DNA of 63,701 nt from Verrucomicrobiota bacterium (GCA_026397855.1 JAPLUA010000264.1:1-63701), one strand, 5' to 3'. Shown: positions 20 to 63,636, counted from the first letter of the stretch. Notes: generated by a model not told the origin, from the sequence alone. Made by a program: numbers and translations.

Positions 20-63
20 GAAACGACCTTGAAACGACCTTGAAACGACCTTGAAACGACCTT
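20..63. repeat. perfect 11-bp tandem repeat (GAAACGACCTT) x4
   Basis: Read directly: copies at 20-30, 31-41, 42-52 and 53-63. Lies 3' of the minus-strand oxidoreductase gene at the window edge. Confidence 0.9.
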
Positions 64-281
64 GCTACCACGGAGAGTCTATGGCGGGCTTACGGTGGCT
101 GGATAACGGGGAGCGGACACGAATGTCCACGCTCCGATGACCCGGCGTGGTGGTTTTGAAATAGGCCAGGATGCGCACCGGTGCCCTGGGGAGGGGGAGG
201 GCGCCGTGGTCGGCCTGACGGCTGAGGCGGTGAGGGCGATACCAGGTTTCGGATGCCGGGATTTGATCGCCACCTCTATGC

Positions 282-23909: not shown

Positions 23910-24437
23910 ATGACAGCCAAACGAAAGCCCGAAGGCACCGGCCGCAGATTTGTCAAAGTGTGCCATATACTGGACCAGCACAACCGCAACCCGGCGCGGC
24001 TGGTCCCCATCCTGCAGGCCGTGCAGGAGGAATACCGTTACCTGCCGCAGGAGGTGCTGACGTATGTCGCGACTGCGCTGGGCGTCTCGCCCGCGCGGGT
24101 CTATGGCGTGGCCACCTTCTACGCGCACTTCACCATCCTGCCGAAGGGCAAACATCTGGTCCGGCTGTGCGACGGCACGGCCTGCCACGTGAAGGAATCG
24201 GTGCCGATCCTGCGTGCGCTGCAAAAGCGGCTCGGAGTGGATGAGCAAAAGCGGCTCGGAGTGGATGACCGGCGCAAGACAACCGAGGACATGCTGTTCA
24301 CGGTGGAGACGGTCGCATGCCTGGGTGCCTGCGGCCTGGCGCCAGTCGTGGTGATAGACGACCAGGTTTACGGGCAACAGTCACCCGAAAGCGCGGTGAA
24401 GCTGGTGGAAGCCCTCATCACGCAGGAGGCCCAATGA
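23910..24437 (+). CDS. hydC: [FeFe]-hydrogenase HydC subunit (NuoE-like thioredoxin-fold [2Fe-2S] protein)
   Basis: 'ILQAVQEEYRYLP', 'GKHLVRLCDGTACH', 'ETVACLGACGLAPV'. Carries an in-frame 24-bp tandem duplication. Confidence 0.88.
   Translation: MTAKRKPEGTGRRFVKVCHILDQHNRNPARLVPILQAVQEEYRYLPQEVLTYVATALGVSPARVYGVATFYAHFTILPKGKHLVRLCDGTACHVKESVPILRALQKRLGVDEQKRLGVDDRRKTTEDMLFTVETVACLGACGLAPVVVIDDQVYGQQSPESAVKLVEALITQEAQ
24221..24268 (+). repeat. perfect 2 x 24-bp tandem duplication inside hydC (in frame; QKRLGVDE/QKRLGVDD)
   Basis: GCAAAAGCGGCTCGGAGTGGATGA at 24221-24244 is repeated exactly at 24245-24268. Confidence 0.95.
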
Positions 24438-26335: not shown

Positions 26336-28322
26336 ATGAAACCGACAGACATCAAACCATTTGAAGGCAATATGACTACCACTGTAGCTGCAAAGACATT
26401 GACCATTGACGGGCGCGAGGTGCCATTCAACGGCGAGCGCAACCTGCTGGAGCTGATTCGAAAAGCGGGCATTGACCTGCCGACCTTCTGCTATCATTCG
26501 GAGCTCAGCGTCTATGGGGCTTGCCGCCTCTGCCTGGTGGATATCCAGGGCCGCGGCATCCAGGGCGCCTGCTCGACGCCTCCTGAAGCCGGCCTGAAGG
26601 TGCGCACGCAGACGGAAGAGATTCGCGACATCCGGAAGATCACGATTGAGCTGCTCCTGGCCAACCATGACCAGCAGTGCCCGACCTGCCCGAAGAGCTC
26701 GGCCTGCCAGCTCCAGGATATTGCCCGCAAGCTGGGCATCCGCAAGGTCCGCTTCAAGCCCGTGCACCAGCCCGCGGAGCTGGACCTCTCGTCGGTTTCG
26801 CTGGTGCGCGGTCCGAACAAGTGTGTGCTATGTGGGGATTGCGTGCGCTTCTGCGAGGAGATCCAGGGCGTTGGCGCCATTGATTTCGCCCATCGGGGTC
26901 ACGAGGCGGCCGTGCTGCCCGCCTTTGGTAAAGGTTTGGGCGAGGGCGAGTGCATCAACTGCGGCCAATGCGCCGCGGTCTGTCCCACCGGTGCGCTGAC
27001 GCCGCGGCCCGAAGTGGACGAGGTCTGGCGCGCGCTCAACGACCCGGTCAAGACCGTGGTAGCCCAGCTCGCCCCGGCGGTGCGGGTGGCGATCGGCGAA
27101 GCCTTCGGCCTGGCCCCCGGCATGTCGGCCAGCGGCCAAATCGTGGCGGCGCTGAAGCGCCTCGGGTTTGACAAGGTTTACGACACCGCCTTCAGCGCCG
27201 ACCTGACGGTGGTTGAAGAGGCCAACGAGTTCCTGAAGCGGAAGGCCAAGGGCGAGAAGCTGCCGCAGTTCACCAGTTGCTGCCCGGGCTGGGTCAAGTT
27301 CGCCGAGCAGTATTTCCCCGAGCTGCTGCCAAACCTGTCGACATGCAAGTCGCCGCAGCAGATGCTCGGGGCGCTGTGCAAGGCCACCCTGCCGGGCGAG
27401 ATGGGCATTCCGAGGGAGAACCTCGTCATGGTTTCCATCATGCCCTGCACCGCCAAGAAGTTCGAGGCCAAGCGGCCCGAAGTTCCGCTTCAAGGAACTC
27501 GAACCCGAGTCCTTCGATATGCCGCTCGGCTTCAAGACCGGCGCCGGGGTCATCTTCGGCAACTCGGGAGGCGTAAGCGAAGCGGTCCTGCGATATGCCG
27601 CCGAATCGGTCACCAAGCGGAAGCTGGAGAACCCGGATTTCCACGCGGTGCGCGGCGAGGACGGGATCCGCCTGGCCACGGTCGCCCTGGACGGGGTGCA
27701 ACTCAAGCTGGCCGTGGTGCATGGATTGAAGAATGCCCGCACGCTGGCGGAGAAAGTGCGCCGGGGCGAATGCGAGCTGGACCTCATCGAGGTAATGGCT
27801 TGCCCGGGCGGTTGCATTGGCGGCGCCGGCCAGCCGGTGTCGCGCGAACGCGATATCAAGCGCTTGCGCACCCGGGGCCTGTATGAAGCCGACAAGCATC
27901 TGGACCTGCATAAGTCCCAGGAAAACCATCACGTGACAGAGATGTACCAGACCTATCTGGGCGAAATCGGCGGGCGCAAGGCCCATCACCTCCTGCACAC
28001 CCACTATCAGAACCGGCGGCGCATCGCAGATGAGCGGCTCGTGTTCGGCGACGGGCCTGACGGGGAGAAGCTCAAGGTCAGCGTGTGCGCGGGCACCAAC
28101 TGCTTCCTGAAAGGCTCGCAGGAGGTAATCCGCGACGTGCTCCAATGCGTCGAAGCCCAGGAACTGCAAGACCAGGTCGAAGTGAGCGCTTCGTTCTGCT
28201 TCGAGAAATGCGACCAGGGCCCGACCGTCCGGGTGGACGGCCAGCAAATCCAGCACTGCACTGGCCAGAAGGCGTGCGCCGCAATGCGCGAGCGCCTGAA
28301 GGCCAAACTCGCGCCCGAGTGA
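26336..28322 (+). pseudogene. hydA: [FeFe]-hydrogenase catalytic subunit HydA, interrupted by an out-of-frame internal deletion near 27480
   Basis: N-terminal Fe-S domains plus P1 'FTSCCPGW' and P2 'IMPCTAKKFEA' read in frame A until 'AKRPE'. 'FKELEPESFDMPLGFKTGAGVIFG...' and P3 'IEVMACPGGCIGGAGQP', plus a C-terminal 2Fe-2S domain, continue in another frame (ORF 27519-28322). Confidence 0.85.
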
Positions 28323-29757: not shown

Positions 29758-29776
29758 AGGCTGTGTTTAGGGACCC

Positions 29777-31285
29777 ATGAGCGCTTTTCGCACTGAATCC
29801 GATCTGTTGGGCGAGTTGCCGATCCCGGCGGCCGCCCTGCACGGCATTCATACGGCCCGCGCGCTGGACAACTTTCCGCTGGCGTTGCAGCCGGTGGCCC
29901 CGGGCCTGGTCCGGGCGTACGGGACGGTGAAGCTGGCCTGCGCCATGACCAACCGCGCGCTTGGGGCCTGGGCGGATGATGCTCCCAAGGCAGACGCGAT
30001 CGAGCGCGCCTGCCGCGAGCTGGGCGAAGGTTTGCTGGACCGGCAGCTGGGCGAAGGTTTGCTGGACCGGCACATCGTGGTGGACCGGTTGCAGGGCGGG
30101 GCAGGGACCAGCACGAACATGAACGTTAACGAGGTGCTGGCCAATCGTGCGCTGGAGCTGCTCGGCGAACCGCCGGGCACTTATGGCCGCGTATCTCCGC
30201 TGGAGGATATCAACCTGCATCAGTCCACCAACGACACCTACCCGACGGCTTTGCGGCTGGCCGCAATCGTTGCCTTGCGCGAGTTGGAGCGGCGCGTGGT
30301 GGCGCTGCAGGAAGCCTTCCAGGCCGCTGAAAAACGCTTCGCGCATGTCGTCAAGGTCGGCCGGACCCAATTGCAGGACGCCGTGCTGACGACCCTGGGA
30401 CGTGAGATGGGGGCGTATGCCGAGGCGATGAACCGTGACCGCTGGCGGATCTACAAATGCGAGGAGCGTCTGCGGGTCGTCAATCTTGGGGGCACCGCCA
30501 TCGGCACCGGGCTGGCGGCGCCGCGCCAGTTCATCTTCCGGGTGACCGATACGCTGCGTGAGCTTGCCGGGATTGGTTTTGCCCGCGCGGAGAACCTCGT
30601 GGACGCCACGCAGAATGCGGACGTGTTCGTGGAGGTGTCCGGCATCCTGAAAGCGCACGCCGTTTCCCTGCTGAAGATCTGCGGCGACCTGCGGCTGATG
30701 GCTTCGGGGCCGGAAGCCGGGCTGCGCGAGATCCGCCTGCCCGCCCGCCAGGCCGGCTCGTCCATCATGCCGGGCAAGGTGAACCCGGTCATCCCCGAGG
30801 CAGTCAGCCAGGTGGCCATGCTGGTGATGGGCCACGACGCGACCATCGCCTCCGCCTGCGCCGCCGGCAGCCTGGAGCTGAATCCGTTTCTGCCCCTGGT
30901 GGCCGCTTGCCTGCTGGAAAGCCTGGAACTGTTGGGCCGGGCCGACGACATTCTCTGCCGCCATTGCGTTTCGGGTCTGGAAGCCGACGAGGCACGCTGC
31001 CGCCAGCATGTGCTCAACTCGACCGCCGCGGCGACGGCGTTGCTGCCGGCGCTTGGCTATGACCGGGTTTGCGAATTGGCGCGGTCGAGCGCTGAGACCG
31101 GCCGCACCGTCCGCGAGCTTGCGATCACGAATGGCTGGCTCTCGGCCGCGGCGTTCGATGAGCTGATCAGCCCTGAAGCCGTTTGCCGGCTTGGCACGCC
31201 GGACCTGCCGCACCCCGATCCCGACACGGGGCGCGCGGACGCACGCGCCAAGGCCGACGACTGCAAACAGGAGGCGAAGCCATGA
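29777..31285 (+). CDS. aspartate ammonia-lyase-like class II fumarate-lyase-family enzyme embedded in the hyd maturase operon
   Basis: 'FRTESDLLGELPIP', 'QGGAGTSTNMNVNEV', 'TQLQDAV', signature 'GSSIMPGKVNP'. ATGA overlap with hydF. Contains an in-frame 27-bp duplication. Confidence 0.85.
   Translation: MSAFRTESDLLGELPIPAAALHGIHTARALDNFPLALQPVAPGLVRAYGTVKLACAMTNRALGAWADDAPKADAIERACRELGEGLLDRQLGEGLLDRHIVVDRLQGGAGTSTNMNVNEVLANRALELLGEPPGTYGRVSPLEDINLHQSTNDTYPTALRLAAIVALRELERRVVALQEAFQAAEKRFAHVVKVGRTQLQDAVLTTLGREMGAYAEAMNRDRWRIYKCEERLRVVNLGGTAIGTGLAAPRQFIFRVTDTLRELAGIGFARAENLVDATQNADVFVEVSGILKAHAVSLLKICGDLRLMASGPEAGLREIRLPARQAGSSIMPGKVNPVIPEAVSQVAMLVMGHDATIASACAAGSLELNPFLPLVAACLLESLELLGRADDILCRHCVSGLEADEARCRQHVLNSTAAATALLPALGYDRVCELARSSAETGRTVRELAITNGWLSAAAFDELISPEAVCRLGTPDLPHPDPDTGRADARAKADDCKQEAKP
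30019..30072 (+). repeat. perfect 2 x 27-bp tandem duplication inside the aspA-like gene (in frame; LGEGLLDRQ/LGEGLLDRH)
   Basis: GCTGGGCGAAGGTTTGCTGGACCGGCA at 30019-30045 is repeated exactly at 30046-30072. Confidence 0.95.
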
Positions 31286-33658: not shown

Positions 33659-33860
33659 CGAAATCCGAAGGCCGAAGCCCGAAATCCGAAGGAAGGCCGA
33701 AGCCCGAAATCCGAAAAGCGGCGTGTCAACGGGTCACCAAAGGGGCTGGCTGTCCAGGCGCTGATGGGAACTTTCGCAGCCTGCTACGAGTGTGGCGTGA
33801 GGGCTTCAGCCTTCGGATTTCGGCCTTCCTTCGGATTTCGGCATTCGGCATTCGGATTTA
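33659..33860. repeat. ~200-bp MITE-like element with ~45-bp terminal inverted repeats built from CCGAA/CGAAGCCC units
   Basis: 33661-33705 is the near-perfect reverse complement of 33815-33859 (about 3 mismatches). The arms are internally iterated (GAAATCCGAAGG...). Confidence 0.8.
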
Positions 33861-33869
33861 CCCCTCCCC

Positions 33870-34133
33870 ATGTCCCCTGAACCTCTCAACTCCATCATGA
33901 TCTGCATGGGCAGCTCGTGCTTTTCGCGCGGCAACAACCGGAACATTGAAGTGATCCAGGAGCACCTCGCGGCCCAGCCGCTCCCGGCGGGGGTTGAACT
34001 CACCGGCCACCTGTGCGAAGGCCACTGCAAGGCGGGTCCGAACGTCACGATCAACGGCAAGATGTATCACGAGGTGGACCCCATCGTCATCATCGGCCTG
34101 CTCAACCACTACAGCCAGCAACGAGAGGGATAA
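33870..34133 (+). CDS. small thioredoxin-like [2Fe-2S] ferredoxin
   Basis: 87 aa; 'ICMGSSCF' (Cx4C) and 'LCEGHCKAGPNV' (Cx3C), the same pattern as the NuoE-type domains in HydB/HydA. Confidence 0.8.
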   Translation: MSPEPLNSIMICMGSSCFSRGNNRNIEVIQEHLAAQPLPAGVELTGHLCEGHCKAGPNVTINGKMYHEVDPIVIIGLLNHYSQQREG

Positions 34134-34140
34134 ACTTCCT

Positions 34141-35930
34141 GTGAACTTCCTGAATCCCATCTACACGGAAAAGCGCGAATGCCAGGATTGCTACAAGTGC
34201 GTTCGGCATTGTCCCGTCAAAGCCATCAAGGTGGAGGGCGGTTACGCCTCGGTGGTTCCGGAGCTGTGCATCCTGTGCGGGCACTGTGTGGAGGTCTGTC
34301 CGAACTCGGCCAAGCGGGTGCGGGATGATCTGTCCCAGGCGCGGCAACTGCTCGCGCTCAAGCCGCGCGTGCTGGTATCGCTGGCCCCCTCTTATGTGAG
34401 CGAGTTTCCGGAACTGCAACCCGGCCAGCTCATTCGCGCCTTCAAACGGCTCGGCTTTTCCGGAGTTTCCGAGACCGCCCTGGGCGCCCAGCAGGTCTCC
34501 GCTCAGGCTGCCGCCGCCCTGGCGGAAGGCAGCGGGCGAGTGCTCTATTCCTCGGCCTGCCCGACGGTGGTGAGCTACCTGCAGAAGCATCGGCCCGCCG
34601 ACTCGCAATACCTCACCGGGCTGCTTTCGCCGTTGCTGACGCACTGCAAGATGCTGCGGCAGGGCTTCGGGCAGGACATCGGCATCGTGTTTGTCGGTCC
34701 GTGCATCGCCAAGAAGCTCGAAGCCGCCCAGCATCCGGCATTGCTGGATGTCGCGCTCACCTTCGACGACTTGCGCCGGTGGCTGACGCAGGAGCAGATC
34801 ATGCCGGAGACACTGGCGGCTGAGGCCGGGGATAGCTTCATCCCGGAGCACTCCGCTGAAGGCGCGTGGTATCCGGTGGACGGGGGCATGATCGCGGGAA
34901 TGAAATCCATCTGTGCGGTGAACGATTGCTCGTTCATGGCCTTCTCCGGCATCAACGCTATCCAGAAGGCGATCGAGGGGTTGGGCACCCAGCCGATGGA
35001 CGGAAGCCTGTTCCTGGAGTTGCTCGCGTGCGAGGGCGGCTGCGTGAACGGTCCGCGCGCCGCCAAACGGTATGGCACGGCCGCCAAGCGCCGCCGGGTG
35101 CTTCGGGCGGTGGTGGCGCCCCCGCCGATGCTCCCGCGCCAGTCCAGCCTGGACATCCAGTCCATATTCGCCGTAGCGCCCCAGCCGCTGCTCAAGTTTT
35201 CCGAGTCGCAGATCCGGGAAGCCCTGCGTGCGGTCGGCAAGATTTCACGGGATGACGAGCTGGACTGTGGCGGCTGCGGTTACAATTCGTGCCGCGAGTT
35301 TGCCGGGGCGCTCATCCAGCAAAAGGCGGAACGCGCCATGTGCGTCACCTACATGCGCAAGCTGGCGCTGAAGAAGGCGAACGCCCTCATTCAGAAGATG
35401 CCCTCGGCCGTCGTGATCATCAACGACGCGATGCGCATCATCGAATACAACACCGCCTTCGCCACCCTGTTCGCCTGCAACGTGGCGCCGGCGGGCTCAC
35501 CCCCGACGGGCGCGTCTCTGGAAGGGGTGATGCTGAGCGAGATCATGCCCTTCGCCAACCTCTTCCACGCCGTGCTGAAGAGCGGCGAGGACATCCTGGA
35601 TCGGGACCTCCGCTACCAGAAGACCATTCTGCACTCCGCTACCAGAAGACCATTCTGCATGCCGGTATTTTCACCATTGAAAAGCACTGCGTGGTGGGCG
35701 GCATCCTGCAGGACATCACGGAGCCGGCCGTCCGGAAGGCGGAGGTGATCCGCAAGGCGCAGGAGGTCATCCAGCGCAGCCTGCAGACCACGCAGACCAT
35801 CGCCTGCCTGCTGGGCGAGAGCGCCGCCGAAACCGAGATCACCCTCAACTCGATCATCGAATCCTTTTCGCCCGCCAAACTGGAGGAGCCCAAGCATGAG
35901 AACGATTGGCGAAAGCTTTATAGACGTTGA
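34141..35930 (+). pseudogene. hydS: HydS-type putative sensory [FeFe]-hydrogenase (Fd domain, H-domain, Cx2Cx4Cx16C, PAS), frameshifted by a 26-bp tandem duplication
   Basis: GTG at 34141 after a GAGAGGG SD. 'CQDCYKCVRHCP', 'CILCGHCVEVCP', 'SSACPTV', 'GPCIAKKLE', 'ELLACEGGCVNG', 'CGGCGYNSC-x16-C'. The frame switches at the duplication; ORF 35289-35930 carries the C-terminus '...LRYQKTILHAGIFTIEKH...DITEP'. Confidence 0.88.
35608..35659 (+). repeat. perfect 2 x 26-bp tandem duplication inside hydS (frameshifting)
   Basis: CTCCGCTACCAGAAGACCATTCTGCA at 35608-35633 is repeated exactly at 35634-35659. Deleting one copy fuses ORFs 33994-35748 and 35289-35930 in frame. Confidence 0.95.
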
Positions 35931-37077
35931 TTCCTCCCAGCGCGCCAAGGCCGGCCAGGTGGTCTCCGGTGACGTCTTCCTCTCGCGGCGCATCAAGCCC
36001 GAGGGGCGCATCATCTCCATCCTCTCGGACGGTCTGGGCAGCGGCGTCAAGGCCAGCGTGCTGGCGAACCTGACGGCCACGATGGCGCTGCGGTACACGT
36101 CGGCCTTTGTGGATGTCCGCAAGAGCGCGGGCACCATCATGGACACCCTGCCGATCTGCGAGGTCCGCAAAATCAGCTACTCCACGTTCACCATCGTTGA
36201 CCTGGATGAGCGGGGCCATGCCCGGGCGATTGAGCACGGCAACCCCGCCCTGGTGCTGATGCGCGGCCAGAGGGCGCTGCCGCTGGAGCGGGTGGACATC
36301 ACCCTGGATAATTGGAAGGATCGCACCATCAGCTACAGCGAGTTTGATGTCCAACTGGGCGACCGGATTGTCTGCGCCTCAGACGGCATCAGCCAATCGG
36401 GGTTGGGCCGCAAGGGCCTGCCGCTCGGCTGGGGCAGCGAGAACTTCGTCCGCTTCCTGTCGCAGCAGGTAGGGCAGGAGCCGGAAATCTCTTCGCAGGA
36501 ACTCTCCCGGAAGGTCGTCGCCGAGGCCCTGGTGAACGACGGCGCCGCCGCCAAGGACGACATGACCTGCGGCGTGGTTTACTACCGTCACCCGCGCCGG
36601 CTCCTGGTCATCACCGGGCCGCCCTTCTGCAAGGAGCGCGATGGCGAATTGGCGGAGATGGCGGAGTCGTTTCCCGGGAGCAAAGCCATCTGCGGCGGCA
36701 CCACCGCCAATATCATCTCGCGCCTGCTCAACCGGCCGGTTCGCGCCTGTCTGGCCAAACTCGATCCGGAGATACCCCCGCCGGCCTTAATGCAGGGCAT
36801 TGACCTGATCACCGAAGGGACCATGACCCTCGCGCGCGTCGCGGAAATGCTGGAGCGCGGCGCGCAGCAACCGTGGCCCGACAACGCGGCCCGCGACCTG
36901 CTGGCCCTGATGCTCCGGAGCGATGTCGTCGAGTTTGTGGTCGGCACGCGCATCAATGAGGCTCACCAGGACCCGAATGTGCCGGTTGAGCTCGACCTGC
37001 GCCGCAATATCATCCGCCGCATCGTCGGGCTGCTGGAGAGCAAACACCTCAAGGAGTGTTCCGTCCGGTTCCTCTGA
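35896..37077 (+). CDS. SpoIIE/PP2C-family Ser/Thr phosphatase with a ~160-aa C-terminal domain of unknown function
   Basis: 'SGDVF', 'ILSDGLGSGVKASV', 'GDRIVCASDGIS', 'KDDMTCGVV' PPM motifs. GGAGG SD 8 nt upstream. Overlaps the hydS 3' end by 35 nt. Confidence 0.85.
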   Translation: MRTIGESFIDVDSSQRAKAGQVVSGDVFLSRRIKPEGRIISILSDGLGSGVKASVLANLTATMALRYTSAFVDVRKSAGTIMDTLPICEVRKISYSTFTIVDLDERGHARAIEHGNPALVLMRGQRALPLERVDITLDNWKDRTISYSEFDVQLGDRIVCASDGISQSGLGRKGLPLGWGSENFVRFLSQQVGQEPEISSQELSRKVVAEALVNDGAAAKDDMTCGVVYYRHPRRLLVITGPPFCKERDGELAEMAESFPGSKAICGGTTANIISRLLNRPVRACLAKLDPEIPPPALMQGIDLITEGTMTLARVAEMLERGAQQPWPDNAARDLLALMLRSDVVEFVVGTRINEAHQDPNVPVELDLRRNIIRRIVGLLESKHLKECSVRFL

Positions 37078-57982: not shown

Positions 57983-58245
57983 ACGGGGAGAGTATTGCAC
58001 CCCGGCTTTCCGCGGTTCAAGCCTGGAGAGATGCAGGGCTGCATCAAGCTCTTGAGATCCATACGGCATGGATGGATGCTCCCCCAGGGAGAGATGCCGT
58101 TGAAATGCTTTAGGCGCAGCAATTCTCATTATGGCCCTGTCACCCAACGCCGGGTGTGGGCACCCGGCCAGCCCGTCTCGTCCATAATGAGAATTGCTGC
58201 TTTAAGCTTTAGCACGGCGCCTTTGGGATGTTAACTGTGCACGGC

Positions 58246-59035
58246 ATGAACCTGGCGATTGAGACGGTCGGGCTGACGCGGCGCTTCGGGAACCTGAGCG
58301 CGGTGGATGCGATTGACCTGCGCGTGGAGCGCGGAACGTTCTATGGCTTTCTCGGCCCGAACGGCGCGGTTTCTCGGCCCGAACGGCGCGGGCAAATCCA
58401 CCACCATCAAGATGCTGACTGGGTTGCTGGCGCCGACCTCGGGCGCGATGCGCTTGCTGGGAGAGGGCCTGGGCGATCCCGAACGCGCGCGCGCCGTGAA
58501 AGGGCGCATGGGGGTGGTGCCGGAGAACCTGGCGCTGTTCGAGAATCTCACCGCGCGCGAATACCTTACTTTCATTGGGCGGATGTATCTATTGCCCGAG
58601 GCCACTGTCCGGGAGCGAACGGATGAGCTGCTCTCCATGATGGAGCTGGCCCGGGAGGAGAAGAAGCTGGCGCTTGAATACTCGCACGGCATGAGGAAGA
58701 AGCTCGCGCTGGCGGCAGCCCTGCTGCCGAACCCGGAGCTGCTTTTCCTGGATGAGCCGTTTGAAGGGGTGGATGCCGTTGCGTCGCGGGTATTGCGCGA
58801 CACGCTCAAGCGCGCGGTGGAGCGCGGGGCGACGGTATTCCTGACCTCGCACGTGCTGGAGATCGTCGAGAAGCTCTGCACCCATGTCGGAATCATTGCC
58901 CGGGGCAAGCTGGTGCACCAGGAGTCAATGGCTGCCGTGCGGGAGAAAGGCTCGCTGGAGGAGCGGTTCCTGGCGGTGGTCGGCGCGGACCAGTTCGAGC
59001 CGCAGAAGCTGAGCTGGCTGGAGGGTGGACGGTGA
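58246..59035 (+). pseudogene. ABC transporter ATP-binding protein, frameshifted by a 22-bp tandem duplication in the Walker A codons
   Basis: 'MNLAIETVGLTRRFGNLSAVDAIDLRVERGTFYGFLGPNGA' (ORF 58228-) continues as 'GPNGAGKSTTIKMLTG...LSGG-like...LLFLDEPFEGVD' in ORF 58307-59035. Confidence 0.85.
58348..58391 (+). repeat. perfect 2 x 22-bp tandem duplication (frameshifting) in the ABC ATPase P-loop
   Basis: TTTCTCGGCCCGAACGGCGCGG at 58348-58369 is repeated exactly at 58370-58391. Confidence 0.95.
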
Positions 59036-60759: not shown

Positions 60760-60935
60760 GCCGGCGCAGGTCGCGCGCACCCGCTGTCCTGTGCCTCCGA
60801 ACCGGGGTGGCCCAGGGACATCTCTTGCAGGCGCAACGCTCCCTTTCCCATGTCAGGAAAGGGTCCTGCGAGCCGCTCCGGGCGATTCCTGCCTCTCCCG
60901 GAATCGGGGGAAAAGCGCAAAAACCCCTTATTCCC

Positions 60936-60990
60936 TTCGAAGCCCCTTCGAGACCCCATCGAAGCCCCATCGAAGCCCCGTCGAACCATC
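60936..60990. repeat. 11-bp tandem repeat (consensus ATCGAAGCCCC) x5, degenerate at the ends
   Basis: TTCGAAGCCCC, TTCGAGACCCC, ATCGAAGCCCC, ATCGAAGCCCC, GTCGAACCATC. About 130 nt upstream of the DPD-like gene. Confidence 0.85.
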
Positions 60991-61122
60991 ACGCCAGCAG
61001 CACCCGTGCAACAAGCTCCAACCCGGCGAGACTCCGGCCCGGCCCTGGCTCGCCTGCCGCCAATACAGGGTCAGCAATGGCCAATAAGAGTGTGGTTGCA
61101 ACCCCCGTTTCCGGCTGTCATC

Positions 61123-63636
61123 ATGAATGCCCAATTCACCACTGACACGGCGATGAAAGCAAATAACGGATCCCTCAGCGATGCCCGGTTGCGGGCCGAG
61201 CTCAACCGGTGCGAATACTGCGAGGAGAAGCCCTGCAAAACGGCCTGCCCGGCCGATTGCTCGCCCGTGGATTTTATCATGGCGGCGCGCGTGGGGGACA
61301 AGTCGGACTTCCGCCGGGCCGGGGCGATGATCATGGGCTCGAACCCGCTGGGCTGGGTCTGCGGCGTGGTGTGCCCGGATTACTTCTGCATGAAGGCGTG
61401 CTCGCGCCGCACGTTTGATTACCCGATCAATATTCCCGCCGTGCAGGCCAGCGTGATGGAGCGGGCTTACGAGGCCGGCCTGCGGAGCTTCCCGGCGGCA
61501 CCCGCGAATGGGAAGCGCGTGGCCGTGATCGGCTCGGGGCCGGCGGGACTGGGCGCGGCCACCGTGCTGGCGCAGCGGGGTTACAAAGTCACCGTGTATG
61601 AGCGGCGCGAGCGGCTGGGCGGGATGATGCACCTGATCCCGGACTTCCGGCTCGACAAGAAGGTAGTGCGTCGCGACCTCGAATTCCTCAAGCAACTGGG
61701 CGCGCTGGAGTTCGTGTCGGGCAAAGCAGTAAGCCGGCCGGAAGAATTGCTGGCCGATTACCGGGCGGTGATTGTGTGCGCCGGGCTGGAGGAGCCGCTT
61801 AAGTTGGACATCCCCGGCGAGGAATACGCGCTGTCGTGGCAGGACTACCTCGAGAACCAGCGCAAGATCAGCGTCAAGAACAAGAAGGTGGCCGTCCTGG
61901 GCGGCGGAGCCGTGGCGGTGGATTGCGCCACGACTGCCAAACAGCGCGGCGCGCTCTCGGTCGAGCTGGTCTATCGCCGCAAGCAGCAGAACATGCCGCT
62001 GACAGCCTATGAGCGGGAGATGCTGATCGAGCACGGGATAGACATCTCCAGTTGTTCCAAGCCGCTCGAAATCGTCCACCAGGGACGGCGGGTCACCGGC
62101 CTGCGCCTCGCCCACATGATCCTGCCCAAAGGGAAGGCGCCCCGGCCCGAGAACTTCGTAGTGAGTAAGAAGGAGTCGCCCCTGTTCCGTGAGTTCGACG
62201 TGGTCATCTCCGCCATTGGCAGCCGGCCTAGGCTGCCGATGAAGAAAACCCCGGGGATCTTCTACGCGGGCGACATGGTGCTCGGCTCGGCGACTGTCGT
62301 CGAAGCCGTGGCCACCGGCAAGAACGCGGCGCTGGAAGTCGAAGCCTATATCTCCGGTCACAAACGACCCCACTTCGCGAATCGCGCCAAGAGCCACGTG
62401 GAGCTGGCGGGCCTGAACCTTTGCCCGGTGCCGCTGGACACGGACTTCTTCGGTCGCAAGATCCGCTCGCCCTTCCTCCTCTCCGCCGCGCCGCACACCG
62501 ACGGCTACGACCAGATGCGCAAAGCCTACGAGGCCGGCTGGTCGGGCGGGGTGATGAAGACCGCCTTTGACAACATTCCCATCCATATCCCGGCCGAATA
62601 CATGACCGTGTTCGGCCCTTCGACCTACGGCAACTGCGACAACGTCTCGGGGCACTCCCTCGACCGGGTGCGCAAAGAGCTGGAGCAGTTGGTGAAGGAG
62701 TTCCCCGACCGGCTCACGCTCGCGTCCACCGGCGGCCCGGTGACCGGCCGTGACGAGCATGACAAGCCGGTTTGGCAAGCGAACACGCGCAAGCTGGAAA
62801 GCGCCGGCGCGATGGGCGTGGAATACAGCCTCTCCTGCCCGCAAGGCGGCGACGGCACCGAGGGTGACATCGTCTCGCAAAACGCAGAGCTGGCTGCGAA
62901 GATCATTGATTGGGTGATGGAGGCCAGCGCCGATGACAACCCCAAGCTCTTCAAGCTGACCGCAGCCGTCACGTCCATCAATCCGATCATCAAGCGCATC
63001 CAGCAGGTGTTCGCCCGCTATCCGAACAAGCGGGCCGGCGTCACCCTTGCCAACAGCTTTCCGTCGCTGGCGTTGCGCAAGGTCGAGGGCCGTCGCTGGG
63101 AAGAAGGGGTGATCGTCGGCATGTCGGGCGAAGGCGTCCTGCCGATCAGCAACCTGACCCTGGCCAAAGTCTCCAGCACCGGCATCGCAGTCTCCGGCAA
63201 TGGCGGGCCGATGAACTACAAAGCCGCCGCCAACTTCCTGGCGTTGGGCGCGCAGACCGTGCAGTTCTGCACCATCGCCATGAAATACGGCCTGGGCATC
63301 GTCGGCGACCTGCACTCCGGCCTGAGCTTCCTGATGGAAGAGCGCGGATTCAAATCTGTGAAGGAGTTGATCGGCTCGGCGCTGCCCAACCCGATCACCG
63401 ACTTCATGGCCCTCTCTGCCATAAAGAAACTGCCGACAGTGGTTGCCGACCTATGCGAGCATTGCGGCAATTGCACCCGCTGCCCGTACCAGGCCATCGC
63501 GTTGAACGGCAGGAAGGTTCCGACCTTTGATCCGGCCCTCTGCATCGGCTGCTCCCTGTGCGCGCAGAAATGCTTCGCCGGGGCCATCTCCATGCGCCCC
63601 CGCACGCCGAAGGAACTGGCCGCCCTCCAACATTAA
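61123..63636 (+). CDS. fused dihydropyrimidine-dehydrogenase-like protein (PreT/GltD-like Fe-S/FAD/NADPH half plus PreA/DHODH-like FMN half plus 2x[4Fe-4S])
   Basis: ATG at 61123. 'CEYCEEKPCKTACP', 'VAVIGSGPAGLGAA', 'VAVLGGGAVAVDCA', DHODH-like 'SPFLLSAAPHT...GGVMKT', C-terminal 'CEHCGNCTRCP' and 'CIGCSLCAQKC'. Confidence 0.8.
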   Translation: MNAQFTTDTAMKANNGSLSDARLRAELNRCEYCEEKPCKTACPADCSPVDFIMAARVGDKSDFRRAGAMIMGSNPLGWVCGVVCPDYFCMKACSRRTFDYPINIPAVQASVMERAYEAGLRSFPAAPANGKRVAVIGSGPAGLGAATVLAQRGYKVTVYERRERLGGMMHLIPDFRLDKKVVRRDLEFLKQLGALEFVSGKAVSRPEELLADYRAVIVCAGLEEPLKLDIPGEEYALSWQDYLENQRKISVKNKKVAVLGGGAVAVDCATTAKQRGALSVELVYRRKQQNMPLTAYEREMLIEHGIDISSCSKPLEIVHQGRRVTGLRLAHMILPKGKAPRPENFVVSKKESPLFREFDVVISAIGSRPRLPMKKTPGIFYAGDMVLGSATVVEAVATGKNAALEVEAYISGHKRPHFANRAKSHVELAGLNLCPVPLDTDFFGRKIRSPFLLSAAPHTDGYDQMRKAYEAGWSGGVMKTAFDNIPIHIPAEYMTVFGPSTYGNCDNVSGHSLDRVRKELEQLVKEFPDRLTLASTGGPVTGRDEHDKPVWQANTRKLESAGAMGVEYSLSCPQGGDGTEGDIVSQNAELAAKIIDWVMEASADDNPKLFKLTAAVTSINPIIKRIQQVFARYPNKRAGVTLANSFPSLALRKVEGRRWEEGVIVGMSGEGVLPISNLTLAKVSSTGIAVSGNGGPMNYKAAANFLALGAQTVQFCTIAMKYGLGIVGDLHSGLSFLMEERGFKSVKELIGSALPNPITDFMALSAIKKLPTVVADLCEHCGNCTRCPYQAIALNGRKVPTFDPALCIGCSLCAQKCFAGAISMRPRTPKELAALQH

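What the first reader, a model, noticed from the sequence alone, without database searches (positions are those of the whole stretch)
35608..35659. Perfect 26-bp tandem duplication frameshifts the PAS domain of the sensory hydrogenase
CTCCGCTACCAGAAGACCATTCTGCA occurs twice head to tail. Both frames translate 'LRYQKTILH' across it. Removing one copy restores a single ORF '...DILDRDLRYQKTILHAGIFTIEKHCVVGGILQDITEP...'. Since 26 is not divisible by 3, the sensor loses the end of its PAS domain and its overlap with the phosphatase gene. A perfect duplication means a very recent event, a reversible slippage-type ON/OFF switch, or an assembly artefact.
Basis: seen in the sequence. Interest (0 to 1): 0.65.

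Follow-up and report, generated by a model that had tools for sequence, protein, structure and literature searches.

The report
Assembly-private 26-bp duplication breaking hydS
The exact 26-base doubling that breaks a hydrogen-sensor gene is really in this sequence, but it exists only in this one assembled contig, alongside three other look-alike doublings, so it is most likely an assembly error rather than a genetic switch.

Summary
Bases 35608-35659 are an exact 2 x 26-nt tandem duplication. It frameshifts a HydS-type (group C3, phosphatase-linked) sensory [FeFe]-hydrogenase gene at codon 498 of 587. Lost are the conserved end of the PAS domain, the C-terminal helix and the 35-nt overlap with the downstream PP2C phosphatase gene.

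The lesion is private to this contig. Nine conspecific contigs whose DNA I could read, and 80 loci from other species, all carry one copy. The junction has no exact match in JGI metagenome contigs. The exact "repaired" 587-aa protein is encoded on two other contigs.

The same 63.7-kb contig holds three more perfect two-copy duplications of 22, 24 and 27 nt. All lie in coding sequence, have 0-1 nt of microhomology, and are absent from relatives. It also has a private 74-nt frameshifting deletion in the catalytic hydA. About 0.35 such duplications are expected per window from 1.46 Mb of other assemblies.

I read this as a signature of how this sequence was built: an assembly, polishing or joining artefact (about 0.75). 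A burst of real, very recent private mutations is the alternative (about 0.2). A reversible ON/OFF switch is not supported. Only the reads can settle it. Interest is low.

The parts
35608..35633 (+). Copy 1 of the 26-nt unit CTCCGCTACCAGAAGACCATTCTGCA
   Evidence: This copy is absent from all other assemblies.
35634..35659 (+). Copy 2 of the 26-nt unit, identical to copy 1
34141..35930 (+). hydS, a group C3-type putative sensory [FeFe]-hydrogenase. It is 587 aa with one copy of the unit. Here it is frameshifted after codon 498.
   Evidence: Intact 587-aa orthologues are on L001-L003 and L007, and the same region reads through intact on all 87 loci.
34141..35748 (+). The ORF as encoded: 498 native residues plus 37 out-of-frame residues (535 aa). 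It stops 147 nt before the phosphatase start.
   Evidence: This 535-aa product is on record only from this one 63,701-nt NCBI contig.
35660..35930 (+). Orphaned 3' part of hydS, in the frame of ORF 35289..35930. It encodes the conserved IFTIEKHCVVGGILQDITEP block and the C-terminal helix.
35896..37077 (+). PP2C/SpoIIE-family Ser/Thr phosphatase gene. Its start normally overlaps the hydS end by 35 nt.
   Evidence: PF07228, E 6e-11. One search found the identical protein on 19 other contigs.
33870..34133 (+). Small thioredoxin-like [2Fe-2S] protein gene immediately upstream of hydS. Its position resembles that of hfsA in the hfsABCD operon; homology to HfsA was not tested.
24221..24268 (+). Second perfect tandem duplication (2 x 24 nt). 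It is in frame and adds 8 aa (QKRLGVDE) inside the NuoE-like hydrogenase subunit HydC.
   Evidence: All homologues are 167-aa types without the insert. The 175-aa form is seen only on this contig.
30018..30072 (+). Third perfect tandem duplication (2 x 27 nt, 1 nt of microhomology). It is in frame and adds 9 aa to the aspartate ammonia-lyase-like gene between hydG and hydF.
   Evidence: One copy in L001-L003. The 502-aa form is seen only on this contig.
58348..58391 (+). Fourth perfect tandem duplication (2 x 22 nt). It frameshifts an ABC-transporter ATPase within the Walker A motif (GPNGAGKST).
   Evidence: One copy in conspecific L089-L092, and the intact 258-aa protein P0121 is 99% identical.
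27481..27482 (+). Site of a private 74-nt deletion that frameshifts the catalytic bifurcating-type hydA. HydA is 675 aa in relatives; here a stop follows 504 codons.
   Evidence: HydA is 675 aa in L001/L002 and in ERZ1426838/ERZ1426816.

Best explanation
The 26-nt duplication is a lesion of this particular assembled contig, not a feature of the organism's hydS gene. The organism is a Verrucomicrobiota subdivision-3 / Limisphaerales bacterium known from lake and peat metagenomes. In every other assembly it carries an intact operon: a small [2Fe-2S] protein, HydS (587 aa) and a PP2C phosphatase, next to rex-hydCBA and hydG/F/E. The window equals one whole NCBI contig of 63,701 nt. This contig carries four perfect two-copy tandem duplications of 22-27 nt and a 74-nt deletion, all inside conserved coding sequence and all absent elsewhere. 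The most likely cause is a step after sequencing, such as contig joining or gap closing with untrimmed overlaps, consensus polishing or stitching, or manual editing. Such a step would have inserted or dropped short segments. Shown here: the duplication exists, it frameshifts the gene, it is private to this contig, it is one of a series, and the series is far above background. Inferred: that the cause is technical. The exact tool or step was not determined.
For: 1. Privacy at this site. Nine contigs at 95-99% DNA identity have one copy (L001-L007; L094 and L095). These come from ENA, NCBI and JGI assemblies. All 87 loci, including 80 other species, read straight through with one copy. The two-copy junction has 0 exact matches in JGI metagenome contigs, while the one-copy control has 2.

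2. Closest relatives are intact. The truncated 535-aa product is recorded from one contig only. The exact repaired 587-aa protein (P0284) is encoded on two ENA contigs. Those contigs also have HydC of 167 aa, HydA of 675 aa, and the same 19-nt hydG-to-lyase spacer as the window. So even the closest strains lack the lesions.

3. It is one of a series. Perfect duplications of 22, 24, 26 and 27 nt all lie in coding sequence. The 27-nt and 22-nt duplications are absent from conspecific DNA. The 24-nt one is absent from every homologue. A private 74-nt frameshift deletion sits in hydA.

4. The rate is far above background. There are 4 such duplications in 63.7 kb. In 1.46 Mb of 95 loci from other assemblies there are 8 hits at 6 sites, none with a 20-30-nt unit. 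That gives an expectation of about 0.35 per window, and by my Poisson calculation from these counts P(4 or more) is about 5e-4.

5. The form fits a technical cause. The size range is narrow, the copies have zero divergence, and microhomology is 0, 0, 0 and 1 nt. This is not what replication slippage between short direct repeats gives.

6. Biological implausibility. Three of the five lesions destroy conserved genes (the hydA catalytic subunit, the hydS PAS core, the ABC Walker A motif). At this density a whole genome would carry hundreds of them. False duplications from gap filling and assembly errors are a documented class (PMC9516828).
Against: No reads were available, so read support was not tested. 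De Bruijn-graph assemblers do not normally invent junction k-mers, so a purely graph-based short-read assembly would need a later joining or polishing step to create these. The rest of the contig looks clean: long intact ORFs and no scatter of 1-nt frameshifts. The SNP pattern against the closest strains shows no change-point at the duplication sites, so a join of two strains is not indicated. Four of the five lesions fall in the hydrogenase cluster (24-36 kb). That could also fit real decay of a dispensable module. The assembly method of the source record is unknown to me.
Confidence: 0.75

Rival explanations
1. The lesions are real, very recent mutations private to the sampled strain. On this reading, the lineage has just inactivated its H2 sensor (hydS), its bifurcating hydrogenase (hydA) and an ABC transporter through short tandem duplications and a deletion. 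The cause could be relaxed selection on H2 metabolism or an unusual repair process such as fill-in and ligation of staggered breaks.
For: The sequence as deposited contains them. Four of the five lesions lie in the hyd cluster. Other strains also show damage in this cluster: the lyase-like gene is split by an in-frame stop and hydB is split in ERZ1426838. The contig otherwise looks well assembled. The perfect identity of the copies fits a very recent origin.
Against: None of the lesions appears in any other assembly, including contigs that encode the identical HydS protein. The narrow 22-27-nt size class and the lack of microhomology are not the usual natural spectrum. The density is about 12 times the overall background, and no 20-30-nt duplication at all occurs in 1.46 Mb of other assemblies. 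It implies hundreds of gene-breaking events per genome. One lesion hits an unrelated ABC ATPase 22 kb away.
Confidence: 0.2
2. The duplication is a reversible slipped-strand ON/OFF (phase-variation) switch. Gain and loss of one 26-nt unit would toggle the H2 sensor and its translational coupling to the phosphatase.
For: The unit length is not a multiple of three, and loss of one copy restores the frame exactly. Recombination between two perfect 26-nt direct repeats could in principle revert it.
Against: There are only two copies of a long unit, not a multi-copy short-unit tract. The one-copy state is fixed in all nine conspecific contigs read here, in 80 other species and in the protein clusters. 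No second two-copy sequence was found anywhere. The site is at 83% of the gene, inside the most conserved PAS strands. The one-copy sequence has no flanking direct repeats that would favour slippage. Identical-type duplications in three unrelated genes on the same contig argue against a locus-specific device.
Confidence: 0.03

Closest known systems
False (artefactual) duplications in genome assemblies: untrimmed contig overlaps, wrong gap filling, consensus or stitching errors (for example PMC9516828)
   Same: The lesion is private to one assembly. The copies are perfectly identical and lie directly adjacent. Lesions of the same form recur along the contig, and they create false frameshifts and false insertions in conserved genes.
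   Different: The documented cases are mostly kilobase-scale duplications in eukaryote assemblies, flanked by gaps or read-depth anomalies. Here the units are 22-27 nt with no N gaps, in a bacterial metagenome-derived contig. Neither read depth nor the assembly method could be examined.
HydS / HfsB-type putative sensory [FeFe]-hydrogenases: HydDB group C3, phosphatase-linked (PMC5037454); Thermotoga maritima HydS (PMC10055695); hfsABCD of Thermoanaerobacterium (PMC5707799)
   Same: The repaired gene has an N-terminal 2x[4Fe-4S] domain, an H-cluster domain with SSACP in place of TSCCP, a C-terminal 4-Cys FeS motif and a PAS domain. A small [2Fe-2S] gene lies upstream and a PP2C phosphatase gene downstream. 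It sits next to rex and a HydABC-type hydrogenase.
   Different: In this contig the gene is truncated at residue 498. No member of this verrucomicrobial clade has been studied experimentally, and no kinase partner was looked for.
Phase-variable contingency loci (simple-sequence-repeat switches in Neisseria, Haemophilus and Campylobacter; my own knowledge)
   Same: The repeat unit is not divisible by three and sits inside an ORF, so a change in copy number toggles the frame.
   Different: Contingency loci have many copies of 1-8-nt units, usually near the 5' end. They vary in copy number between isolates and are conserved as repeats. None of this holds here.

Membership tests
Group C3 (phosphatase-linked) putative sensory [FeFe]-hydrogenase, HydS/HfsB type (applies to the repaired gene) | [FeFe]-hydrogenase H-cluster domain | tested here: met
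   PF02906 at E 1e-41, residues 76-305. The family profile matches solved HydA structures 8a6t and 7p5h at E 1e-27 and 4e-24.
Group C3 (phosphatase-linked) putative sensory [FeFe]-hydrogenase, HydS/HfsB type (applies to the repaired gene) | C-terminal PAS domain after an extra 4-Cys FeS motif | tested here: met
   PF04060 covers residues 374-402. For PAS_8, the window protein scores only 18.5 bits, below the 21.8 cut-off. At family level all 33 aligned members hit PF13188 (best E 6.8e-7) and 17 hit PF00989. The AlphaFold2 model was too poor in this region (pLDDT below 50) to confirm the fold.
Group C3 (phosphatase-linked) putative sensory [FeFe]-hydrogenase, HydS/HfsB type (applies to the repaired gene) | Proton-relay cysteine of the TSCCP motif replaced (Ala in TmHydS A131) | tested here: met
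   SSACP at residues 137-141 aligns with TSCCP of HydA1 8a6t. Ala at this position occurs in about 43% of sensory sequences (PMC10055695).
Group C3 (phosphatase-linked) putative sensory [FeFe]-hydrogenase, HydS/HfsB type (applies to the repaired gene) | Adjacent Ser/Thr phosphatase gene | tested here: met
   A PP2C/SpoIIE gene at 35896-37077 overlaps the intact hydS end by 35 nt. HydDB defines group C3 this way (PMC5037454).
Group C3 (phosphatase-linked) putative sensory [FeFe]-hydrogenase, HydS/HfsB type (applies to the repaired gene) | H2 sensing and signalling activity | not testable with these tools
   This needs biochemistry or genetics. It is only putative even in HydDB.
Slipped-strand phase-variation (contingency) locus | Tract of many tandem copies of a short unit | tested here: not met
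   Exactly two copies of a 26-nt unit.
Slipped-strand phase-variation (contingency) locus | Copy-number polymorphism among strains or samples | tested here: not met
   One copy in nine conspecific contigs. The junction has 0 matches in JGI contigs. The truncated product is recorded from a single contig.
Slipped-strand phase-variation (contingency) locus | Repeat conserved at the locus in related species | tested here: not met
   80 loci from other species have a single copy.
Assembly false duplication | Present in one assembly only and absent from independent assemblies of the same population | tested here: met
Assembly false duplication | Recurrent lesions of the same form across the assembly, above background | tested here: met
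   4 in 63.7 kb against about 0.35 expected from 1.46 Mb of other assemblies.
Assembly false duplication | Not supported by the underlying reads | not testable with these tools

The most novel reading that the evidence does not exclude
The lesions are real. On this reading, this Limisphaerales strain has undergone a burst of 22-27-nt non-homologous tandem duplications. These could be templated fill-in repairs of staggered double-strand breaks. Together with a deletion, they have just silenced both its H2 sensor (hydS) and its H2-evolving bifurcating hydrogenase (hydA). That would reveal an undescribed bacterial mutational process and capture loss of H2 metabolism in progress.
Probability: 0.05. 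Interest if true: 0.55.

Novelty: not a real feature. Interest (0 to 1): 0.1.

Why it matters
It matters mainly as a caution. Taken at face value, this contig says the organism has lost its H2 sensor, its main [FeFe]-hydrogenase and an ABC transporter. Every other assembly of the same species shows these genes intact. Annotation pipelines have already deposited the truncated 535-aa HydS and the HydC and lyase proteins with 8- and 9-aa inserts as ordinary proteins. Flagging a cluster of perfect 20-30-nt tandem duplications in coding sequence is a cheap quality check for metagenome-derived genomes. If the reads did support the lesions, they would point to an unusual mutational process and a strain caught losing hydrogen metabolism.

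Tried and rejected
1. Join of two strains. If untrimmed overlaps had joined contigs from different strains, SNP patterns should change at the duplications. They do not, judged against L007, L090 and the others.

2. Failed look-ups. Exact-protein look-ups for window HydB, HydG and the Gfo/Idh/MocA oxidoreductase found no other contig. I reached conspecific DNA for the 24221 and 58348 sites through homologue searches instead. For 24221 only protein-level evidence and an 85%-identical DNA locus (L088) were obtained.

3. A similar-sized contig. A 63,878-nt ENA contig (L093) carries a 57-aa HydC fragment that starts near the 24-nt duplication site. It proved to be a different organism in a different context, with many fragmented genes. 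It is a coincidence, not another version of this contig.

4. Odd gene lengths in L004. The 603-aa HydS and 297-aa HydE there are caused by scaffold N gaps, not by duplications.

5. The 25-nt x 1.96 repeat at 33667-33715. It first looked like a fifth duplication. It is conserved in all conspecifics and belongs to a palindromic intergenic element.

6. Structure prediction. The AlphaFold2 model of the repaired protein, built from a 33-sequence alignment, had a mean pLDDT of 57 and below 50 across the PAS region. I ran no fold search and took no structural conclusion from it.

7. Other frameshifts. Overlapping ORF pairs at 15.4-17.5 kb, 44.8-47.4 kb and 49.5-52.5 kb are separate intact genes.

8. 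Assembler identification. I could not identify the assembler or the step that made the duplications. The unit sizes (22, 24, 26, 27) do not match one k-mer size.

Full report
**Observation.** Bases 35608-35659 are two exact, adjacent copies of CTCCGCTACCAGAAGACCATTCTGCA. The period-26 identity spans exactly 52 nt, so the duplicated block has no flanking microhomology. The chance expectation for such a repeat in a window of this size and composition is about 7e-11.

The duplication splits one gene into two ORFs. ORF 33994..35748 reads '...DLRYQKTILHSATRRPF...' and ORF 35289..35930 reads '...LRYQKTILHAGIFTIEKH...'. Deleting one copy gives a 587-codon gene running from GTG 34141 to the stop at 35930.

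**What the gene is.** The repaired protein has these parts:
- an N-terminal 2x[4Fe-4S] ferredoxin domain;
- an [FeFe]-hydrogenase H-cluster domain (PF02906, E 1e-41);
- a 4-Cys FeS motif (PF04060, residues 374-402);
- a weak PAS_8 match (18.5 bits, below the 21.8 cut-off).

At family level the PAS assignment holds. All 33 aligned relatives hit PF13188 (best E 6.8e-7) and 17 hit PF00989. The family profile matches solved HydA structures. In that alignment the motif SSACP lies opposite TSCCP, so the proton-relay cysteine is replaced by alanine. This is the state of Thermotoga maritima HydS (A131) and of about 43% of sensory [FeFe]-hydrogenases (PMC10055695).

The gene is preceded by an 87-aa thioredoxin-like [2Fe-2S] gene. 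It is followed by a PP2C/SpoIIE phosphatase gene whose start it overlaps by 35 nt when intact. Upstream lie rex, hydC (NuoE-like), hydB (NuoF-like), hydA, hydG, an aspartate-ammonia-lyase-like gene, hydF and hydE. This is the HydDB group C3 'phosphatase-linked, putative sensory' arrangement (PMC5037454). It is related to hydS of Ruminococcus albus and to hfsABCD of Thermoanaerobacterium (PMC5707799).

The organism belongs to Verrucomicrobiota subdivision 3 / Limisphaerales. The best species-level relatives, at 91-92% amino-acid identity, are genomes recovered from boreal-lake and palsa metagenomes.

**Effect of the duplication as written.** The encoded product is 535 aa: 498 native residues plus 37 out-of-frame residues. 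It lacks residues 499-587. The lost part begins with IFTIEKHCVVGGILQDITEPAVRK, a block that is highly conserved across all 87 loci from many phyla, and continues into the C-terminal helix. The ORF now ends 147 nt before the phosphatase start, so the gene overlap is lost.

**Is it a feature of the organism?** It is not seen in any other sequence I could reach.
- The phosphatase protein is encoded identically on 19 other contigs. The seven whose DNA could be read (L001-L007) are 97.5-99.3% identical to the window. They come from ENA metagenome assemblies and one NCBI metagenome-derived genome, and all have one copy.
- The 80 loci from other species returned by the genome scan all read straight through with one copy.
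- The two-copy junction has no exact match in the JGI metagenome contigs, while the one-copy control pattern finds two contigs.
- An exact-sequence look-up shows that the window is one whole NCBI contig of 63,701 nt. The 535-aa truncated product is on record from that contig only.
- The exact repaired 587-aa protein (P0284) is encoded on two ENA contigs, from ERZ1426838 and ERZ1426816.
- Those two contigs share the window's short 19-nt hydG-to-lyase spacer, so they are its closest known strains. They have HydC of 167 aa, HydA of 675 aa and HydS of 587 aa.

**It is one of a series.** An exhaustive scan finds four perfect two-copy tandem duplications in the window.

| Position | Unit | Gene | Effect |
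|---|---|---|---|
| 24221 | 24 nt | hydC | in frame, +8 aa |
| 30018 | 27 nt | lyase-like gene | in frame, +9 aa |
| 35608 | 26 nt | hydS | frameshift |
| 58348 | 22 nt | ABC-transporter ATPase | frameshift inside the Walker A motif |

Microhomology at the four sites is 0, 1, 0 and 0 nt in the order above.

The other three are also private.
- The 27-nt copy is absent from L001-L003.
- None of the seven HydC sequences aligned has the 8-aa insert, and nearly all the listed homologues are 165-171 aa long.
- The 175-aa HydC and the 502-aa lyase-like protein are recorded from this contig alone.

Relative to L001/L002 the window also lacks 74 nt inside the catalytic hydA. This frameshifts it: the gene is 675 aa elsewhere, and here a stop follows 504 codons.

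A 25-nt x 1.96 repeat at 33667 is different in kind. It is conserved in all conspecifics and is part of a palindromic intergenic element.

**Background rate.** I applied the same scan to 1.46 Mb from 95 loci in about 90 other assemblies. It gave 8 hits at 6 sites, none with a unit of 20-30 nt. The expectation for a 63.7-kb window is therefore about 0.35, against 4 observed. By my Poisson calculation from these counts, P is about 5e-4.

**Interpretation.** The facts to explain are these:
- four perfect duplications in a narrow size class, without microhomology;
- a 74-nt deletion;
- all five inside conserved coding sequence, three of them destroying essential motifs;
- all five absent from every other assembly, including strains with an identical HydS protein.

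Together these point to the way this contig was produced, not to the biology of hydS. At this density a genome of several megabases would carry hundreds of such lesions. False duplications created by gap filling, unmerged overlaps and consensus errors are a documented class of assembly error (PMC9516828).

I could not identify the step responsible. There are no N gaps at the sites. The unit lengths do not match a single k-mer size. SNP patterns against the closest strains show no switch of strain at the duplications. The rest of the contig looks clean. I put about 0.75 on a post-sequencing artefact.

**Rivals.** A real burst of very recent private mutations gets about 0.2. In its favour, four of the five lesions fall in the hyd cluster. 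Other strains also show an in-frame stop in the lyase-like gene and a split hydB. A phase-variation switch gets about 0.03. There are only two copies of a long unit, no polymorphism, no conservation of the repeat and a position late in the gene, and the same kind of lesion occurs in three unrelated genes.

**What would settle it.** Reads from the source sample mapped across the five sites would decide. One-copy, undeleted reads would mean an artefact. Two-copy reads at normal depth would mean real lesions. Neither the reads nor the assembly metadata were available here.

**Verdict.** The gene and the consequence are right, and of the three options offered the artefact is the best supported. 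Novelty: most likely not a real feature. Interest: low.

Noticed in passing
window 24221-24268: Perfect 2 x 24-nt tandem duplication inside the NuoE-like hydrogenase subunit gene hydC (23910..24437). It adds 8 aa (QKRLGVDE). All homologues lack the insert.
   Followed up: yes
window 30018-30072: Perfect 2 x 27-nt tandem duplication in the aspartate-ammonia-lyase-like gene (29777..31285). It adds 9 aa. Conspecific contigs L001-L003 have one copy.
   Followed up: yes
window 58348-58391: Perfect 2 x 22-nt tandem duplication that frameshifts an ABC-transporter ATPase in its Walker A motif (ORFs 58228..58626 and 58307..59035). Conspecific contigs L089-L092 have one copy and an intact 258-aa gene.
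   Followed up: yes
window 27481/27482 (L001 1344-1417): A 74-nt deletion relative to conspecific contigs frameshifts the catalytic bifurcating-type [FeFe]-hydrogenase gene hydA (starts 26372). The gene is 675 aa elsewhere; here a stop follows 504 codons.
   Followed up: yes
window 33659-33859; L001 3700-3933 versus window 29763-29776: Palindromic intergenic element with 55-nt imperfect inverted arms built from CGAAATCCGAAGG-type units, 89 nt apart. It lies between hydE and the small 2Fe-2S gene and is conserved in all conspecifics. A similar element of about 220 nt fills the hydG/lyase spacer in L001/L002 but is absent from the window and from two ENA strains. This looks like a presence/absence polymorphism of a MITE- or REP-like element.
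   Followed up: partly
L095 (JGI Ga0118677_10068969) versus window 35301-35729: This contig differs from the window at many sites elsewhere but at only about five over the roughly 430 nt that encode the PAS part of hydS. It could be a recombination tract or strong constraint at the nucleotide level.
   Followed up: no
window 29777-31285; ENA contigs of ERZ1426838 and ERZ1426816: An aspartate-ammonia-lyase-like gene sits between hydG and hydF in the maturase cluster. In the two closest ENA strains it is split into 161 + 326 aa by an in-frame stop, and in one of them hydB is split into 518 + 103 aa.
   Followed up: no
window 20-64 and 60933-60985: Short 11-nt tandem arrays: GAAACGACCTT x 4.1 at the very start of the contig, and CCCATCGAAGC-type x 4.8 within the first ~135 nt of the listed ORF 60850..63636.
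   Followed up: no
L004 3641-3683 and about 1027-1036: This ENA scaffold has N-run gaps with junk sequence inside hydS and hydE. They produce spurious 603-aa and 297-aa gene calls. It is an unrelated example of assembly damage at this locus.
   Followed up: partly
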